From an uncultured Veillonellaceae bacterium (GTDB lineage: Bacteria > Bacillota > Negativicutes > JARBTT01), in the NCBI GenBank assembly GCA_963805085.1, contig CAWDTA010000003.1, positions 96,001 through 160,000 on the forward strand: a DNA stretch of 64,000 nucleotides, given 5' to 3'. Under the pieces are notes generated by a model. The model searched no databases and was not told where the DNA came from. It saw only the letters and a list, made by a program, of their open reading frames with translations. The translations under genes were made by a program, and so were the position numbers. Below are positions 6,949-11,294 of the stretch, piece by piece. The first letter of the stretch is position 1. The number at the start of each line of letters is the position of its first letter.

Positions 6949-8367
6949 TTACCAATAACCGAGAACTTTCCACCATACACCACCGACACCGACCCAGATA
7001 ATGATGTGCATGATTGAGACACCAAAACCAATTTTCCACCAATCTGCTTGCGTAACATAACCAGAACCAAAATAAACTGGAGCTGGGCCTGTACCAAAAT
7101 GCGTTAAACAACCGCAGATATTAGAAGCAAGTGCTACAACAAAAGCGGAAATAAATGGTGGAGCACCTGAAGCTACGCCTAAGGTGATTAGAGCAGCATA
7201 CATTGCCGTTACGTGAGCTGACATACTAGCAAAGAAGTAATGACTATACAAGTAAATTACGAAGGATAATACTACCGCGGTAAGCATGCCTACACCAACC
7301 ATTTGGTTTTCTAATATCTTAGCAAACCAACCGATAAAACCAGTTTTATTGAGGTAATCAGACATTAAGATAACACTACCAACCCAAATTAAAGTATCCC
7401 AGGCTCTCGTTTCTTTTATTACATCTTTCCAAGTTAAAACTTTAGTCGCGAGTAAGATACATAATCCCAGAAAGGCAATTAAAGTGCCGTCTAGCTTCGT
7501 CATCGAAGCTGTAGCCCAAAGTATTAATAGCATAATAAATACAAAGAACATAATTTTTTCATTCTTGGACATTGGTCCCATTTCTTTTAAGACATTAGCG
7601 GCCATTGTTTTTGCTTCAGGCGTGTTTTTGATTTCAGGAGGATAAAATTTGTAAATTGCGTAAGGAATACCAATTAACGCAACAGTACCAGGAACCACAG
7701 CAGCGATAAACCAACCCATCCAAGTGATATCCACATCTAAAACTTTTTTCGCCATTGCAGCAGCAATTGGATTACCAACCATTGCTGTCATAAACATTGC
7801 AGATACAACGAGGTCAATATGAAAGACCGAAGTTACTAGAAAAGCACCGATTTTTCTAGCAGATTCACCTGGTTTTGAATCAAAGGCTTCAGCTAAACTT
7901 TGTACAATTGGGAAAACAAGACCACCAGCCCGCGCTGAGTTAGATGGAATTGCAGGCCCGATAATTAAATCACTTAAAGCTAAAGAATATACAAGTTTCA
8001 GACTGCTATCACCAAAGGATCGCATTGCCATGTAAGCGATCCTTCTGCCTAGACCAGTAATGATAAAGGCTCTAGCTAAAATGAAGGCGGAAACGATCAA
8101 CCATACAGTACCGCCACTGAAAGCGGTTAATACTTCACTGAATTTTAACGTATAAGTTAATGAACATGTGACAATTGCAATTAAAGCTACGGAACCAGCT
8201 TCTATTGGTTGTAAGATAAAACCAACTACTGTACCCATAAAGATTGCGAATAAGTGCCAAGCTTGAGGTTTTAACCCTTCTGGCACTGGGTAAAACCATA
8301 AAATAAGTACAATTCCGACTGTTAATATGGCAGCAGGTATTTTGCTTTCGCCAAAAAGTTTTTTCAT
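6949..8367 (-). CDS. DASS family anion (di/tricarboxylate) permease, CitT/TtdT/YflS-like
   Basis: PSNSARAGG, SAMFMTAMVGNP and THFGTGPAPVYFGSGYV motifs. Start at ATG 8367 after AGGAG. Confidence 0.92.
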   Translation of the reverse strand: MKKLFGESKIPAAILTVGIVLILWFYPVPEGLKPQAWHLFAIFMGTVVGFILQPIEAGSVALIAIVTCSLTYTLKFSEVLTAFSGGTVWLIVSAFILARAFIITGLGRRIAYMAMRSFGDSSLKLVYSLALSDLIIGPAIPSNSARAGGLVFPIVQSLAEAFDSKPGESARKIGAFLVTSVFHIDLVVSAMFMTAMVGNPIAAAMAKKVLDVDITWMGWFIAAVVPGTVALIGIPYAIYKFYPPEIKNTPEAKTMAANVLKEMGPMSKNEKIMFFVFIMLLILWATASMTKLDGTLIAFLGLCILLATKVLTWKDVIKETRAWDTLIWVGSVILMSDYLNKTGFIGWFAKILENQMVGVGMLTAVVLSFVIYLYSHYFFASMSAHVTAMYAALITLGVASGAPPFISAFVVALASNICGCLTHFGTGPAPVYFGSGYVTQADWWKIGFGVSIMHIIIWVGVGGVWWKVLGYW

Positions 8368-8386
8368 ATGCACTACTCCTCGTATA

Positions 8387-8430
8387 ATAAGTTTTGTAAA
8401 CAATAATCCGCCATTGTTTACAAAACTTAT
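8387..8430 (+). repeat. perfect 18-bp inverted repeat at the start of the IS110 left end (5' hairpin of the predicted ncRNA)
   Basis: ataagttttgtaaacaat-aatccgcc-attgtttacaaaacttat. Confidence 0.9.
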
Positions 8431-8675
8431 TTTTTATTTTTTAATGCTTAAAGGAATCCCTTGATGCTAAAATATTTCTAAGAGATTTTAGCAAAGGTAA
8501 CGTCTTATCCTCCTTGCGAAACCTTTTGGTTATTGCTTTTAAAGCTTGACGCCTGCCTTATTCATCAAATACCGCTTACACAGATGTTGCGTCTCTTGGC
8601 GAAAGCTTTCCAGCAAATTTACTTTCACAGATGAATGCTTATTATGCGAGGCTGCGGTCAGTGAATAAGATCAGG
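8394..8675 (+). ncRNA. predicted IS110 bridge RNA (5' hairpin, target-binding loop about 8496-8557, donor-binding loop about 8557-8669); ends approximate
   Basis: Downstream of the circle-junction promoter. Stems: cgtc/gacg, aacc/ggtt, cttattca/tgaataag, accgc/gcggt. 8638-8650 is complementary to donor 8379-8391 at 12/13 positions. Confidence 0.75.
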
Positions 8676-8727
8676 GTATTCCTTTTCTATCTTTCTTATT
8701 CTCAGCCAGAAAGGTGGTGACATTTCT

Positions 8728-10008
8728 ATGAAGAAGGCGGATCTTCTTTCTACTTTGTTTGTGGGAATTGACATAAGTTCCCGCGAAAATGTCGTTTGCG
8801 CTATTGATTTTGAAGAGCAAAAACTGTTGCGATTTACTGTGCCCAATAATCAACCAGGTGCAGTTGAAATGGCTAAAAAGTTTCATGATTTTTTTTCTGA
8901 AAATCATGATCTTAATAAGCTGGTTGTTGCCTTAGAATCTACATCTTTCTATGGTATTCACATAGCTAACTACTTATCTTCCTGTGAATTATTGATGCCA
9001 TTTGACACTCATGTTTACTGTATAAATCCCAAGATGGTTGCCAATTACAAAAAGTCTTATATCGGTCTAGGCAAAACTGATGCAATTGATTCTTTTATTA
9101 TCGCTGATTTTGCTAGAGTTGGCAGAATTACCTCTGCTCCTTGGCGCGGCAGTCAATTTTTAGCTTTGCAGCGTCTAACTCGCCATCGATTACATATAGC
9201 TCGTTCTCTTACTCGTGAGAAAACCTATATGCTTTCAAACATCTTTCTTAAATTTAGTGAGTTTTCTATTCTCGACGATGATAAGCAGCCCTTTTCTAAT
9301 AACTATGGCGCTGCCGCTTCTTCGGTTTTAACTGATTTTCTTTCTACCGAAGATATCGCTAACATGCCGATGGCAGCACTAATTGAACACATTTGTAAAA
9401 AAGGCAAAAATCGTTTTGCAAATCCTGAACACACAGCTTCTTTACTACAGCAAGCCGCTCGCAATTCCTACCGATTGGATAAATGTTTATACGAGCCTTT
9501 AACTATCTCTATCGCCTCATCATTTAACCTTATTTCAGCCTATGAATCTGAAATGAAGGCTATCAATAAGGCTATTGAGAAAACGCTTCGGGGACTTGAT
9601 CCTAACGCTTACCAAAGCCTTTTATCCATTCCTGGAATTGGTCCGGTTTATGCTGCTGGCATTATTGCTGAGATTGGTTCTATTGAGGCCTTTAAGTCTC
9701 AGGAAGCTCTTGCTAAATATGCTGGTCTTGTCTGGCGTGAAAACCAATCTGGCAATTTCAGAGCCGATGATACCATCCTTTCAAAAGCTGGCAATACTTA
9801 TCTCAGATACTATTTAATTGAAGCTGCAAGCCATGTAAAGAATCATTTAGCTGAATATGCAGCTTTTTACCAGAAAAAGTATGATGAAGTTAAAACTCAT
9901 CAGCACAAACGCGCACTCGCACTTACTGCTCGTAAATTCATCCGGCTGATTTTTGGATTGCTGGCCAACCATCAGCTTTACTCTCCAAGTAGAGTAAGCC
10001 AAATTTAA
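8728..10008 (+). CDS. IS110 family transposase/recombinase
   Basis: GIDIS, ALEST and KTDAID (DEDD RuvC-like); SIPGIG and QSG catalytic Ser domain; GNTYLR. Confidence 0.96.
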   Translation: MKKADLLSTLFVGIDISSRENVVCAIDFEEQKLLRFTVPNNQPGAVEMAKKFHDFFSENHDLNKLVVALESTSFYGIHIANYLSSCELLMPFDTHVYCINPKMVANYKKSYIGLGKTDAIDSFIIADFARVGRITSAPWRGSQFLALQRLTRHRLHIARSLTREKTYMLSNIFLKFSEFSILDDDKQPFSNNYGAAASSVLTDFLSTEDIANMPMAALIEHICKKGKNRFANPEHTASLLQQAARNSYRLDKCLYEPLTISIASSFNLISAYESEMKAINKAIEKTLRGLDPNAYQSLLSIPGIGPVYAAGIIAEIGSIEAFKSQEALAKYAGLVWRENQSGNFRADDTILSKAGNTYLRYYLIEAASHVKNHLAEYAAFYQKKYDEVKTHQHKRALALTARKFIRLIFGLLANHQLYSPSRVSQI

Positions 10009-10433
10009 TAGTTCCATTATTTTACTTTTTCTTTGTTTTGAAGAAGAAGCTTGTTTAGTGCACCCATTTTTTACGGATTGCTTACAAAATTTATTTTTTA
10101 TGGGCTTGACATATTACCAGATTGCTTGTTATAAATTTTAAAAAATTTATGAAAATACATTGATAAATTTTATTAATTAAATCATATAAAAATAAACAAG
10201 CAATGTAAAATCTAAAAAAATTATTGTTGATTATCATATAATTGAATGATTATTTAGATAATTTCTAAATTTAACAGTTTTTTATTTATATAATTCGTAT
10301 AAAATGAAAATTGCTAAACAGCAAAAAGTGAGTACTTGAAATAAAAAAGATATTTAAAATATGCTAAATATTTTAAATATCTTTAATAAAATTGTTTTGG
10401 CGATGGATGTTTTAATGATCATTATAATGCTAA

Positions 10434-11294
10434 TTAGAATGGTAGGTTTTTCACAAAATTAACAAACAATTTGACGATAGGAAGTTCAAGGGTGTCATTG
10501 TTATAAATCATCCAGGTCTTTCTTATAATATAGTTACCGGTGGCATCTTTTAAATTTAATTTGTGGATATTTGGAATGTTATCAACAATGCGTGATGGCA
10601 AAATGGCATAACCCAAACCGTTTTTGACCATTTCTTTACAAGTTGCTAATTTATCAACATGCATATTGATGGTTGGTGGTTTCAAGAAGTTTTCACGCCA
10701 CCATTTATCAATCTGTGATTTTAATAAATAGTCACTTTGATATTCGATACGGGGCAAATTTGGCAATTCATTAAAAATAAATGGTTGTGTAGAAGCAATA
10801 CATACAGGTTCTTCATACAATAGATCCATATTTTTGCAACCGCCATAATCAACGCTGACGAATCCGACATGGGTCTTTTTATTATAAATAAGACTAAAAA
10901 TATTTTTTGTCCAATCCGTGGTCATATTAAAATCAGCATTTGGATAATTTTTCTTGAATAGTTTTAATACATACGGTAATGTGTACGTAGTGAAATAATG
11001 AGAAGCACCAATTTCTAATGTTCCAGAGTCGATCTTAGATAAGTTGCGTACTTCATTTTTGATGTTGCTTAAACGTGAAACCATTTCAGAAGATGCTTTT
11101 ACGAGAAATTCACCTTCGGGAGTGATCTGGATTCCCTTGGTACTTCTATGAACAATTTGTACACCGAATTCTCTTTCAATATGTTGTAGCCGTGATGTTA
11201 AAGCAGGCTGTGACATATATAATAGTTGGGCGGCTTTGGTTATATTTTTTTCTGAATTCAGTGCTTGAATGATAAGCCAATCACGATCTTCCAT
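10434..11294 (-). CDS. LysR family transcriptional regulator
   Basis: NITKAAQLLYMSQPALT HTH. Confidence 0.95.
   Translation of the reverse strand: MEDRDWLIIQALNSEKNITKAAQLLYMSQPALTSRLQHIEREFGVQIVHRSTKGIQITPEGEFLVKASSEMVSRLSNIKNEVRNLSKIDSGTLEIGASHYFTTYTLPYVLKLFKKNYPNADFNMTTDWTKNIFSLIYNKKTHVGFVSVDYGGCKNMDLLYEEPVCIASTQPFIFNELPNLPRIEYQSDYLLKSQIDKWWRENFLKPPTINMHVDKLATCKEMVKNGLGYAILPSRIVDNIPNIHKLNLKDATGNYIIRKTWMIYNNDTLELPIVKLFVNFVKNLPF

What the first reader, a model, noticed from the sequence alone, without database searches (positions are those of the whole stretch)
8379..10126. IS110 ends reconstitute a perfect sigma-70 promoter across a CT core on circularisation
Seen: the right end ends TTGACA-tattaccagattg-CT (10106-10126) and the left end starts CT-cg-TATAAT (8379-8388). 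Joining at CT gives TTGACA-N17-TATAAT firing into the roughly 340-nt non-coding left end. The donor junction is ccagattgCTcgtat. Known: this is the IS621/IS110 arrangement in which the circle junction drives bridge-RNA expression. It fixes the element boundaries to the base.
Basis: partly seen in the sequence, partly recalled or inferred. Interest (0 to 1): 0.75.

Follow-up and report, generated by a model that had tools for sequence, protein, structure and literature searches.

The report
IS110 element with circle-junction promoter
This is an intact bridge-RNA-guided IS110-family insertion sequence sitting in a gene's ribosome-binding site, and its two ends would form a perfect promoter if it excised as a circle; this arrangement is already known from IS621.

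Summary
CT-cg-TATAAT lies at 8379-8388 and TTGACA-N13-CT at 10106-10126. Joining them at CT gives TTGACA-N17-TATAAT.

The boundaries are fixed by three 100%-identical copies plus a fourth, broken one. They are also fixed by an empty site in a same-genus genome that reads ...ACTC-CT-TGTTAT....

The ORF at 8728-10008 is an IS110-family RNA-guided transposase. The left end folds into a covarying two-loop RNA. Its loop sequences match, and covary with, the natural target flanks and the element's own ends.

All 16 loci in which I located both ends give -35/N17/-10 across the core, down to 37% protein identity, while the spacer sequence changes.

No circle junction or transcript start could be observed; only assembled contigs were available. 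Promoter activity is therefore inferred.

This is the published IS621/IS110 arrangement, so it is a new member of a known kind.

Extras:
- The clade inserts into Shine-Dalgarno sequences (19 of 20 sites).
- A terminator-like hairpin overlaps the predicted transcript start.
- The same genome holds a 232-bp derivative that carries only the target-binding loop.

The parts
8379..8380 (+). Left copy of the CT core dinucleotide.
   Evidence: the empty site in G001 holds a single CT.
8381..8727 (+). Non-coding left end (LE), 347 nt.
   Evidence: Folds at -92 kcal/mol, z = -4.62 against shuffles.
8383..8388 (+). TATAAT, the -10 half of the junction promoter. It also lies inside the right-donor sequence that the RDG pairs with.
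   Evidence: In the 16 loci with both ends: TATAAT in 14, TATTAT in 1, TATGAT in 1. LE 8378-8391 is complementary to 8638-8651 (pair I5).
8386..8443 (+). 19-bp perfect hairpin (8386-8404 / 8413-8431) followed directly by a T-run. It looks like an intrinsic terminator when transcribed from outside the element. Its inner 10 bp is the likely 5' stem-loop of the junction-initiated RNA. The 5' arm is also a subterminal inverted repeat with the right end.
   Evidence: Flagged as terminator-like. Folds at -19.7 kcal/mol in full and -8.8 when started at the predicted transcript start. Repeat pairs I1 and I2.
8459..8676 (+). Bridge-RNA core, closed by helix 8459-8465 / 8670-8676. [quoted passage not shown]
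   Evidence: Consensus fold of 10 left ends: 53 pairs, 22 compensatory. My 45-pair structure is 91.1% paired against 31-38% in the slid controls. Coordinates.
8506..8514 (+). Left target guide (LTG), TATCCTC+CT, on the 5' side of the target-binding loop (loop 8505-8516).
   Evidence: Same sense as the left flank plus core. It covaries with the left flanks across orthologues (permutation p about 1e-4).
8538..8544 (+). Right target guide (RTG), TTTAAAG, the reverse complement of CT+TTAAA, on the 3' side of the target-binding loop (loop 8536-8547).
   Evidence: permutation p about 0.0015.
8580..8588 (+). Left donor guide (LDG), ACAGATG+TT, on the 5' side of the donor-binding loop (loop 8575-8588).
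   Evidence: It resembles the RE end CAGATTG+CT with one extra DNA base. It changes together with the RE end in distant orthologues: CCGCTGG-TT with CCGCTG(T/G)G-CT, and CCGTATT-CT with CCGTATTA-CT.
8641..8650 (+). Right donor guide (RDG), ATTATGCGAG, on the 3' side of the donor-binding loop (loop 8639-8654).
   Evidence: It is the reverse complement of the LE start CTCGTATAAT with one G-T wobble. Inverted repeat I5 is 14 nt and 93% complementary.
8687..8717 (+). Predicted hairpin that pairs the transposase ribosome-binding site (AGAAAGGTGG) with CTATCTTTCT.
   Evidence: Minimum-energy fold. Similar pairing is visible by eye in several orthologues; I did not test it.
8728..10008 (+). IS110-family RNA-guided transposase, 426 aa.
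10009..10124 (+). Non-coding right end (RE).
10077..10101 (+). Subterminal repeat in the RE. It is a direct copy (92%) of LE 8413-8437 and an inverted partner (89%) of LE 8386-8404. It forms a T-rich tract just upstream of the -35 box.
   Evidence: D1, I2.
10106..10111 (+). TTGACA, the -35 half of the junction promoter, 13 nt from the core.
   Evidence: Present at the same offset in all 20 loci whose RE end was placed by blastn, and in 16 of 19 loci searched by motif.
10125..10126 (+). Right copy of the CT core dinucleotide.
8367..8378 (-). Target context: the remaining GGAG of the split Shine-Dalgarno AAGGAG, and the ATG of the divergent DASS-type transporter gene (6949-8367).

Best explanation
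The interval 8379-10126 is an intact IS110-group insertion sequence, guided by a bridge RNA and inserted at a CT core in the middle of the Shine-Dalgarno sequence AAGGAG of a divergently oriented transporter gene.

In the chromosome its promoter is split. The -10 box (TATAAT) sits 4 nt inside the left end, and the -35 box (TTGACA) sits 13 nt inside the right end, 1.7 kb away. Excision as a circle (inferred, not seen) would abut RE-CT-LE and create TTGACA-N17-TATAAT.

Transcription from about 8394-8396 (inferred) would then run through a short 5' stem-loop into the bridge-RNA core at 8459-8676, and probably on into the transposase gene. That would give a burst of guide RNA and enzyme only from the excised form. 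The target-binding loop (LTG UAUCCUC-CU, RTG UUUAAAG) directs re-insertion into CTC-CT-T sites. The donor-binding loop (LDG around 8580-8588, RDG 8641-8650) holds the junction itself. Integration splits the promoter again and puts unrelated flank DNA at the -35 position.

Shown from sequence: the boundaries, the protein family, the RNA structure, the guide matches and the conservation of the split promoter. Inferred: the circle, promoter activity, the transcript start, and co-transcription of the transposase.
For: - Sequence and boundaries.
- Protein family: NF033542 at 229.5 bits; PF01548 at E 1.9e-29 plus PF02371 at E 1.5e-22; IS621 transposase 8wt6 at E 4e-9, with the KTDxxD and SKAG motifs aligned.
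- Promoter conservation: in all 16 loci where I located both ends (window plus 15 loci; transposase identity 37-100%) the junction would read TTGACA-N17-(TATAAT x14, TATTAT x1, TATGAT x1). Meanwhile the 13 nt next to the core change (tattaccagattg, tatcaccgctggg, ttgcaccgctggg, tttcaccgtatta, tattactaggtcg).
- The -35 box lies outside the roughly 8 nt of the RE that the LDG mirrors, so guide pairing does not explain its invariance.
- In the distant group the RDG pairs only with CTCGT plus a few bases, yet TATAAT is kept.
- RNA structure: 22 of 45 pairs have compensatory changes; 91.1% of cells are paired against 31-38% in the slid controls; 0 of 500 shuffles reach the observed covariation score.
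- Guide-to-target covariation: LTG against its own left flank scores 88 matches against a permuted mean of 70.9 (fraction at least as high 5e-5). With one site per element it is 64 against 50.1 (1e-4). RTG scores 47 against 37.9 (0.0018).
- Integrated state: the best flank hexamer at the -35 position averages 2.75 of 6 matches over 20 sites, so the perfect promoter exists only at the junction.
- Published precedent, passages read: the junction promoter and the 177-nt RNA of IS621 (PMC11208160); junction promoters in the IS1111 and IS110 families (PMC11187229); the junction promoter boosting expression after a rare excision (PMC13626964).
Against: - No circle junction, tandem junction or junction transcript was seen. 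The 4 runs laid were assembled contigs of relatives and showed no go-back joint. There were no RE-LE junctions in the 5 contigs of the genome or in 62 loci.
- A terminator-like hairpin plus T-run (8386-8443) lies between the -10 box and the bridge-RNA core. If transcription starts further upstream than predicted, junction transcripts could terminate there.
- The -10 box overlaps the sequence read by the RDG, and the bases after TTGACA (TAT-ACC) are also conserved. Part of the conservation could therefore reflect recombination signals rather than promoter function.
- In the script that made the 16-locus table, RE ends were found by searching for TTGACA-N13-CT, which is circular for the -35 box. 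The independent placement by blastn covers only the closer relatives: 20 loci, transposase identity 58-98%.
- In four distant orthologues the LE is 677-923 nt long, which puts the bridge RNA far from the junction promoter.
- Rfam holds no matching family.
Confidence: 0.8

Rival explanations
1. The conserved TTGACA and TATAAT are recombination signals: sites contacted by the recombinase, or paired by the bridge RNA. On this view their likeness to a promoter is incidental or secondary.
For: - TATAAT lies within the 10-14 nt complementary to the RDG (pair I5).
- The conserved block in the RE runs beyond the hexamer (TTGACAT-T-ACC).
- A 19-nt subterminal inverted repeat flanks the junction (pair I2).
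Against: - Both hexamers are the exact sigma-70 consensus at the optimal 17-nt spacing in 14 of 16 loci, and one mismatch away in the other 2.
- The LDG mirrors only about 8 nt next to the core and never reaches TTGACA.
- Distant RDGs do not pair with the whole of TATAAT, yet it is kept.
- Junction promoters have been shown active in relatives (passages in PMC11208160, and PMC11187229).
Confidence: 0.07
2. Junction-initiated transcripts end at the hairpin and T-run (8386-8443). The bridge RNA and transposase would then be made from another start, such as an internal promoter or read-through, and the junction promoter would yield only a short RNA or be irrelevant to guide expression.
For: - The terminator scan flags 8386-8431 with the tail TTTTATTTTT.
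- L019 and L033 carry an internal TATAAT near the second hairpin.
- IS621 bridge RNA can come from read-through transcription (PMC13626964).
Against: - With a start 7 nt after the -10 box only a 10-bp A/U-rich stem remains (-8.8 against -19.7 kcal/mol). The U-run is then 9 nt from the stem rather than adjacent to it.
- No promoter-like site scoring 9 of 12 or better lies on the + strand between 8389 and 8617.
- Read-through from the left would have to run antisense to the divergent flanking gene, and it would meet the full terminator.
- The Selenomonas and Megasphaera orthologues keep the hairpin but have no T-run.
Confidence: 0.09
3. The resident TATAAT works in the chromosome together with a -35-like hexamer supplied by the flank. 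In the window copy that is TTTTCA-16-TATAAT, the reverse complement of an ATG-AAA-AAA gene start. Expression would then be constitutive and would not depend on a circle.
For: One search lists 8361-8388 as a 10-of-12 promoter-like site. In one search, 5 of 20 insertion sites have a flank hexamer matching 4 of 6 or better.
Against: 5 of 20 (25%) is no more than the 36% found at 1010 unoccupied CAT-N7-10-CTCCT sites in the same genome, and only modestly above the 14% found for random flanks. The mean is 2.75 of 6. So there is no sign of selection for this, and most copies lack it.
Confidence: 0.04

Closest known systems
IS621 of E. coli (IS110 family; Durrant et al. 2024, PMC11208160; passages read)
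   Same: - DEDD/RuvC-like plus Tnp-domain recombinase.
- CT core.
- Bridge RNA encoded in the LE, with a 5' stem-loop, a target-binding loop and a donor-binding loop.
- LTG in the sense of left target plus core, and RTG as the reverse complement of core plus right target.
- A sigma-70 promoter reconstituted across the core of the RE-LE circle.
   Different: - The protein is 426 aa against 328 aa and only distantly alike (E 4e-9, mostly in the C-terminal domain).
- About 280 nt lie between the predicted start and the end of the RNA core, against 177 nt, with an extra hairpin.
- The LDG needs a one-base bulge in the DNA.
- The target is a Shine-Dalgarno sequence, not a REP element.
- A terminator-like 19-bp hairpin overlaps the -10 box and transcript start.
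ISEc11 Pjunc (IS1111 family) and ISEc21 (IS110 family), as described in Siddiquee et al. 2024 (PMC11187229; passages read)
   Same: The circular intermediate abuts the ends and creates a promoter. A non-coding region is needed for circle formation and targeting.
   Different: ISEc11 carries its guide RNA downstream of the transposase gene; here the guide region is upstream. The sequences are unrelated.
CazIS110-1 of Caloranaerobacter azorensis (bioRxiv 10.1101/2025.10.25.684509; passages read)
   Same: An IS110 element with a bridge RNA from a Gram-positive anaerobe. That paper reports RNA species holding only the target-binding loop, which recalls the 232-bp derivative with only that loop found in this genome.
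   Different: I made no sequence comparison, so relatedness is unknown. That work used synthetic promoters in the passages I read.
IS900 / IS901 / IS902 group of mycobacteria (IS110 family). Their reported target next to a ribosome-binding site and start codon is recalled from memory. Searches returned no passage stating it.
   Same: Oriented insertion beside the ribosome-binding site and start codon of a host gene.
   Different: The host phylum differs. Here the crossover lies inside the AAGGAG motif itself, and the flank keeps GGAG. I made no sequence comparison.

Membership tests
IS110 family, IS110 group (bridge-RNA-guided insertion sequences) | Recombinase with an N-terminal DEDD/RuvC-like domain and a C-terminal Tnp domain. 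| tested here: met
   PF01548 at E 1.9e-29 (residues 12-169) and PF02371 at E 1.5e-22 (residues 296-382). NF033542 'IS110 family RNA-guided transposase' at 229.5 bits against a cut-off of 140. IS621 transposase 8wt6 at E 4e-9.
IS110 family, IS110 group (bridge-RNA-guided insertion sequences) | No terminal inverted repeats. A short core dinucleotide is shared by target and donor and stands at both junctions. | tested here: met
   CT stands at both junctions in 3 of 3 complete copies, and the empty site holds a single CT. The two ends are not inverted repeats of each other. A subterminal 19-nt inverted repeat does exist (pair I2).
IS110 family, IS110 group (bridge-RNA-guided insertion sequences) | The long non-coding end lies upstream of the recombinase gene (in the LE). 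| tested here: met
   The LE is 347 nt and the RE 116 nt.
IS110 family, IS110 group (bridge-RNA-guided insertion sequences) | [quoted passage not shown] | tested here: met
   8 helices, 22 of 45 pairs with changes on both sides, 91.1% paired against 31-38% in the slid controls, and 0 of 500 shuffles reaching the observed score. The 10 sequences are related, so the shuffle control overstates the case; the slid control is the fairer one.
IS110 family, IS110 group (bridge-RNA-guided insertion sequences) | The first internal loop carries guides matching the left target plus core (sense) and the core plus right target (antisense). | tested here: met
   Window LTG TATCCTC-CT against flanks ACTACTC, ATTCCTC, AACTCTC and ATTCCTC. 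Covariation across orthologues has permutation p about 1e-4 for the LTG and 0.0014-0.0018 for the RTG. Matches are imperfect: 4-5 of 7 for the window's own four sites.
IS110 family, IS110 group (bridge-RNA-guided insertion sequences) | The second internal loop carries guides matching the element's own ends (donor). | tested here: met
   RDG 8641-8650 is the reverse complement of CTCGTATAAT with one G-T wobble (pair I5). The LDG mirrors the RE end and changes with it in distant orthologues, but needs a one-base bulge. I ran no statistical test on the donor guides.
IS110 family, IS110 group (bridge-RNA-guided insertion sequences) | A sigma-70-type promoter reconstituted across the core of the RE-LE junction. 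| tested here: met
   At sequence level only: (all 16 loci with both ends). Promoter activity could not be tested.
IS110 family, IS110 group (bridge-RNA-guided insertion sequences) | A circular intermediate with abutted ends, and a junction-initiated non-coding RNA. | not testable with these tools
   Only assembled contigs of relatives were on offer.
IS1111 group (seekRNA downstream of the transposase gene) | The guide RNA is encoded in the non-coding region downstream of the transposase gene. | tested here: not met
   The RE is only 116 nt and carries no two-loop structure. The guide loops lie in the LE.
Rfam RNA families | A match to a curated covariance model. | tested here: not met
   Over 7800-10700 at E up to 1, the only match was a chance hit (Ysr209, 22.7 bits against a gathering score of 59).

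The most novel reading that the evidence does not exclude
The left end couples two switches, so that guide RNA is made only from the excised circle.

First, the promoter is split by integration. Second, the first 50 nt form a complete intrinsic terminator (19-bp stem with the U-run adjacent) in any transcript that enters from outside. The junction promoter, however, starts inside the 5' arm. Its own transcripts keep only a 10-bp stem that is separated from the U-run, and so they read on.

IS621 needs read-through transcription to excise, and a terminator placed upstream of its LE abolishes excision (PMC13626964; passages read). A natural element with a built-in entry terminator, always inserted head-to-head with its target gene, would therefore need another route to its first excision, or would be very tightly silenced.

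A related point rests on recalled knowledge, not on any call. The LTG (UAUCCUCCU; UCACCUCCU in the Selenomonas copies) has nearly the sequence of the 16S rRNA anti-Shine-Dalgarno tail. The bridge RNA would then read ribosome-binding sites in DNA much as the ribosome reads them in mRNA, and it could also pair with them in mRNA.
Probability: 0.25. Interest if true: 0.55.

Novelty: new member of a known kind. Interest (0 to 1): 0.3.

Why it matters
It gives a cleanly delimited, apparently active bridge-RNA element: three identical copies, an empty site, and all four guide segments assignable. It comes from a low-GC anaerobe and lies far from IS621 in sequence.

Its clade keeps a perfect split promoter and an almost invariant donor sequence (CT-CGTATAAT) from Negativicutes to Paenibacillus and a Chloroflexia genome, while retargeting among variants of the Shine-Dalgarno motif. 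That makes it a useful natural series for studying how target guides evolve while donor guides stay fixed.

It also offers a natural test case for how excision starts when read-through is blocked. For genome annotation it explains why several genes in this genome are cut off from their promoters exactly at their ribosome-binding sites.

The junction promoter itself adds nothing new to the published IS110 model.

Tried and rejected
- **Public reads.** No run held more than 0.18 of the sampled words, and all were kept as contigs. Laying X1, X10, X17 and X19 gave no go-back joint and no start or end information. This says nothing either way about circles or transcripts.
- **Junction in local data.** A search for TTGACA-N13-CTCGTAT[ATG]AT found 0 matches in the 5 genome contigs and 62 loci.
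- **Junction motif in metagenome contigs.** By blastn and tblastn, 0 of 121 were related to this element. They are ordinary consensus promoters, including a recurrent set of 17.
- **Flank-supplied -35 box.** The idea was that target choice supplies a useful -35 hexamer in the chromosome. 5 of 20 sites reach 4 of 6 or better, against 36% of unoccupied Shine-Dalgarno-like sites. Rejected.
- **Consensus fold of all 17 left ends.** It failed, giving only 6 pairs, because close and distant groups misalign in the donor-loop region. I then folded the 10 closer sequences only. The 7 distant ones (L025, L026, L027, L028, L030, L035, L036) were left out of the structure counts.
- **Guide extraction by regular expression.** It picked the wrong segment for L014, L016-L018 (RTG), L022-L024 and L033. 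I replaced these by reading the alignments before the permutation test. That step involved my own judgement.
- **Rfam.** No family matched.
- **Literature on Shine-Dalgarno targeting by IS110 elements.** No passage was found, so the IS900 precedent is recalled only.
- **Extra sequence in the long left ends.** ORF lists for L026 and L036 showed no convincing gene in it.
Full report
**1. Observation**

One search shows C8379 T8380 c g TATAAT (8383-8388) at the left. At the right it shows TTGACA (10106-10111), the 13 nt tattaccagattg, and C10125 T10126. Joined at one CT, the spacer is 17 nt between two perfect sigma-70 hexamers.

By base composition such a site has probability 3.2e-7 per position. 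The 4.2-Mb genome holds 41 of them with N17, against about 2.7 expected, plus 5 with N16 and 13 with N18. One formed exactly by the two ends of a mobile element is not a chance event.

**2. Boundaries**

The genome, G000, holds three copies at 100% identity: the window copy, C3:47176-48937 and C1:355266-357031. A fourth (C2:1949416-1950453, 99%) breaks off after about 1017 nt of the element.
- All four share the left junction ...CTC|CT|CGTATAAT.
- The three with a right end share ...CAGATTG|CT|T..., followed by unrelated sequence.
- A same-genus genome, G001, has the flanks at 97% identity with nothing between them: CATATGCACGACTC-CT-TGTTATAAATTTTG.

So the element is 1746 bp plus one CT, and CT stands on both sides as in IS110-family insertions.

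**3. What it encodes**

ORF 8728-10008 (426 aa) matches three lines of evidence:
- PF01548 (DEDD_Tnp_IS110, E 1.9e-29) and PF02371 (E 1.5e-22).
- NCBIfam NF033542, 'IS110 family RNA-guided transposase', at 229.5 bits against a cut-off of 140.
- Distantly, the solved IS621 and ISCro4 transposases (E 4e-9 and 1.3e-8). The KTDxxD and SKAG stretches align. That these are the catalytic motifs is recalled, not tested.

The 347-nt left end folds far better than shuffles (-92 kcal/mol, z = -4.62).

**4. Relatives**

The search for related loci returned 38 loci. They run from Pelosinus propionicus (97% over C-terminal fragments at contig ends) through Selenomonas and Megasphaera (71-78%), Eubacteriaceae and Mobilitalea (68-69%) and Lachnospiraceae (58-59%). 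The most distant are Paenibacillus, Cohnella and Brevibacillus (39-48%) and a Chloroflexia genome (37%).

**5. Bridge RNA structure**

A consensus fold of the 10 closer left ends gives these features:
- a closing helix (8459-8465 with 8670-8676);
- a small hairpin (8466-8492);
- a stem-loop with an 11-12-nt internal loop on each side, the target-binding loop (8495-8554);
- a second stem-loop with large internal loops, the donor-binding loop (8559-8667).

I removed the pairs that RNAalifold drew between the two donor-guide strands. The remaining 45-pair structure is 91.1% paired, against 31-38% when partners are slid by 1-3 columns. 22 pairs change on both sides. The covariation score is 0.453 against 0.07-0.10.

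A fold of all 17 sequences failed through misalignment, so the seven distant ones are not in these counts.

**6. Guides**

I followed the geometry in Durrant et al. 2024 (PMC11208160; passages read). The LTG has the sense of left target plus core, and the RTG is the reverse complement of core plus right target.

For the window element:
- The 5' loop reads TATCCTC-CT (8506-8514). The four left flanks read ACTACTC, ATTCCTC, AACTCTC and ATTCCTC.
- The 3' loop reads TTTAAAG (8538-8544), the reverse complement of CT-TTAAA. The right flanks read TGTTA, TTTTT and TTAAG.

Across orthologues the loops change together with the flanks, for example:

| Locus | LTG | Left flank |
|---|---|---|
| L017 | TTTTCTC | TTTTCTC |
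| L020 | TTTCCCC | ATTCCCC |
| L036 | TATCATC | GATCATC |
| L033 | TCAACTC | TTAACTC |
| L019 | ATCACTC | CACACTC |

| Locus | RTG (reverse complement) | Right flank |
|---|---|---|
| L019 | TTCTT | TTCTT |
| L036 | TTGAA | TTGAT |

A permutation test of own against swapped targets gives:
- LTG: 88 against 70.9 matches (fraction at least as high 5e-5). With one site per element, 64 against 50.1 (1e-4).
- RTG: 47 against 37.9 (0.0018).

Some guides were read off alignments by eye after a regular expression failed.

For the donor:
- RDG 8641-8650 (ATTATGCGAG) is the reverse complement of the LE start CTCGTATAAT with one G-T wobble. The repeat finder reports 14 nt at 93% complementarity (pair I5).
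- The LDG region ACAGATG-TT (8580-8588) mirrors the RE end CAGATTG-CT with one extra DNA base.
- The LDG changes with the RE end in the distant group: CCGCTGG-TT with CCGCTG(T/G)G-CT, and CCGTATT-CT with CCGTATTA-CT in L035.

**7. The split promoter across relatives**

I located both ends in 16 loci: the window, L014, L016-L019, L021-L027, L033, L035 and L036.
- Every one gives TTGACA-13 nt-CT joined to CT-CG-(TATAAT x14, TATTAT in L019, TATGAT in L035). That is N17 in every case.
- The 13 nt between the -35 box and the core differ between groups, following the LDG, while TTGACA does not change.
- In L035 the G of TATGAT is matched by a C in its RDG (read by eye).

One caveat applies. In some searches the right ends were found by searching for TTGACA, which is circular for the -35 box.
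- In one search, 17 of 19 loci had a TTGACA within 500 nt after the ORF, and 16 of those were followed by N13-CT. L046 and L050 had none, and the site in L028 does not fit.
- The non-circular evidence is the blastn placement of 20 right ends, reaching RE position 118. All 20 show TTGACA at the same offset. These are the closer relatives, with 58-98% protein identity.
- L020's right end is cut by another insertion. L013's left end and L028's right end are also incomplete.

**8. Integrated state**

At 20 occupied sites, the best hexamer at 16-18 nt upstream of the resident TATAAT matches TTGACA at 2.75 of 6 on average. Five sites reach 4 of 6. One is the window copy, TTTTCA-16-TATAAT, listed as a 10-of-12 site.

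Unoccupied CAT-N7-10-CTCCT sites in the same genome reach 4 of 6 in 36% of 1010 cases, and random flanks in 14%. So the perfect promoter is specific to the junction, and there is no sign that targets are chosen to supply a -35 box.

**9. The hairpin after the -10 box**

8386-8404 and 8413-8431 form a perfect 19-bp stem with an 8-nt loop, followed at once by TTTTATTTTTT. The terminator scan flags it.

A start 7 nt after the -10 box (about 8395) falls inside the 5' arm. The RNA then keeps only a 10-bp stem (-8.8 against -19.7 kcal/mol), with the U-run 9 nt away.

A hairpin at this place recurs in most orthologues, with different sequence. For example, GTAAACAAT/ATTGTTTAC becomes GTAAGCAAG/CTTGCTTAC in Selenomonas. 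This fits the 5' stem-loop of published bridge RNAs. By eye, the extension of the stem into the -10 box plus a T-run is seen in the window, L014, L015, L016-L018 and L019, but not in L020, L021, L033 or the distant group.

My reading is an inference. The full structure would stop transcripts entering from outside, while junction-initiated RNA escapes. It matters because IS621 excision depends on read-through, and a terminator placed upstream of its LE abolishes excision (PMC13626964; passages read).

The same 5' arm is also an inverted repeat (89%) of RE 10077-10095 (pair I2). In the circle, therefore, the promoter sits between subterminal inverted repeats. A role in protein binding cannot be excluded.

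**10. Target biology**

The empty site reads, on the other strand, AAGGAG followed 8 nt later by the ATG of the DASS-type transporter gene (Na_sulph_symp, E 1.2e-147).

Of 25 left junctions examined, 5 had flanks too short to judge. Of the other 20, 19 have a start codon opening an ORF of at least 40 codons within 4-24 nt of the core on the opposite strand; the miss is L035.

The element is therefore always divergent from the gene it lands on. It cuts that gene off from its promoter while leaving (G)AGGAG in place.

Oriented insertion beside ribosome-binding sites is something I recall for IS900-type members of the family. Four literature searches gave no passage stating it, nor any describing it for bridge-RNA elements. 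Supplements were not consulted.

**11. What could not be shown**

No circle, no junction transcript and no transcript start were observed.
- The best public runs held at most 0.18 of the element's words and exist only as contigs. Four of them laid on the window gave no go-back joint.
- No junction occurs in the genome or in 62 loci.

**12. Verdict**

The arrangement is the one published for IS621 and noted earlier for other IS110 and IS1111 members (PMC11208160, PMC11187229). This is therefore a new member of a known kind.

The points that go beyond the textbook case are secondary and partly speculative:
- targeting of Shine-Dalgarno sequences;
- the deep conservation of the donor sequence and promoter;
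- the terminator-like entry hairpin;
- the miniature derivative carrying only the target-binding loop.

Noticed in passing
window 8367-8380 and 10125-10132; also loci L002-L004, L015, L019-L028, L033, L036: The whole clade inserts inside Shine-Dalgarno motifs (target CTC-CT-T, the reverse complement of AAGGAG). It is always divergent from the gene. 19 of 20 usable left flanks have a start codon and ORF within 4-24 nt. The flank keeps GGAG, so the gene loses its promoter but not its ribosome-binding site.
   Followed up: partly
G000 C2:1165299-1165532, minus strand (loci L005 and L008); outside the window: A derivative of about 232 bp, resembling a miniature non-autonomous element. It has the LE start with both 5' hairpins and a target-binding loop (LTG TTCGCCTC-CT), then runs directly into an RE ending TTGGCA-tattaccagattg-CT. 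It has no donor-binding loop and no transposase gene, and it lies at another Shine-Dalgarno/ATG site. Its ends equal the full element's donor sequence, so it could be mobilised in trans.
   Followed up: partly
G000 C2:1166400-1166538 (minus strand), C2:625629-625680 (plus strand), C2:1949416-1950453 (minus strand); outside the window: Three decayed relics. One is an LE remnant with a stub of a related transposase gene. One is a solo LE start of about 50 nt. One is a fourth copy of the element, broken after about 1017 nt by unrelated sequence. All lie at Shine-Dalgarno/start-codon sites.
   Followed up: partly
window 8386-8404, 8413-8437 and 10077-10101: One motif of about 19-25 nt occurs three times: the LE hairpin 5' arm, the LE 3' arm with its T-run, and a 92% direct copy in the RE just upstream of the -35 box. 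In the circle, the RE copy and the LE 5' arm would form subterminal inverted repeats around the promoter (D1, I1, I2).
   Followed up: partly
window 8687-8717: A predicted hairpin pairs the transposase ribosome-binding site (AGAAAGGTGG) with CTATCTTTCT. Comparable pairing is visible by eye in several orthologues. It may damp translation.
   Followed up: no
L025, L026, L027, L036 (left ends of 677, 923, 699 and 730 nt): In the Desulfotomaculum, Oscillospiraceae, Cohnella and Paenibacillus orthologues, several hundred extra non-coding bases sit between the LE start and the target-binding loop. L028 lacks them, with an LE of 276 nt. No convincing ORF was found in L026 or L036.
   Followed up: partly
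window 9742-9756 and 10113-10127: A 15-nt stretch inside the transposase ORF is 87% complementary to the last 15 nt of the right end including the core (pair I8). It may be chance.
   Followed up: no
window 8618-8645: A promoter-like site, TTTACT-16-TATTAT (9 of 12), lies inside the donor-binding loop. Its -10 box is part of the RDG, because the reverse complement of TATAAT is itself -10-like. It could serve the transposase gene.
   Followed up: no
metagenome loci L064, L067, L069, L080, L083, L084, L092, L098, L102, L104, L113, L118, L132, L137, L143, L149, L157: 17 of the 121 metagenome matches share one conserved perfect promoter, of the form TTGACA-TTTTCTGCGCTGG-CTCGTATAAT with variants, and the same flanks. 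Many come from gut assemblies. They are unrelated to this element by blastn and tblastn. I did not identify them.
   Followed up: no
L020, about 2870 onward: The right end of one Selenomonas copy is cut by another inserted sequence just before the -35 box.
   Followed up: no
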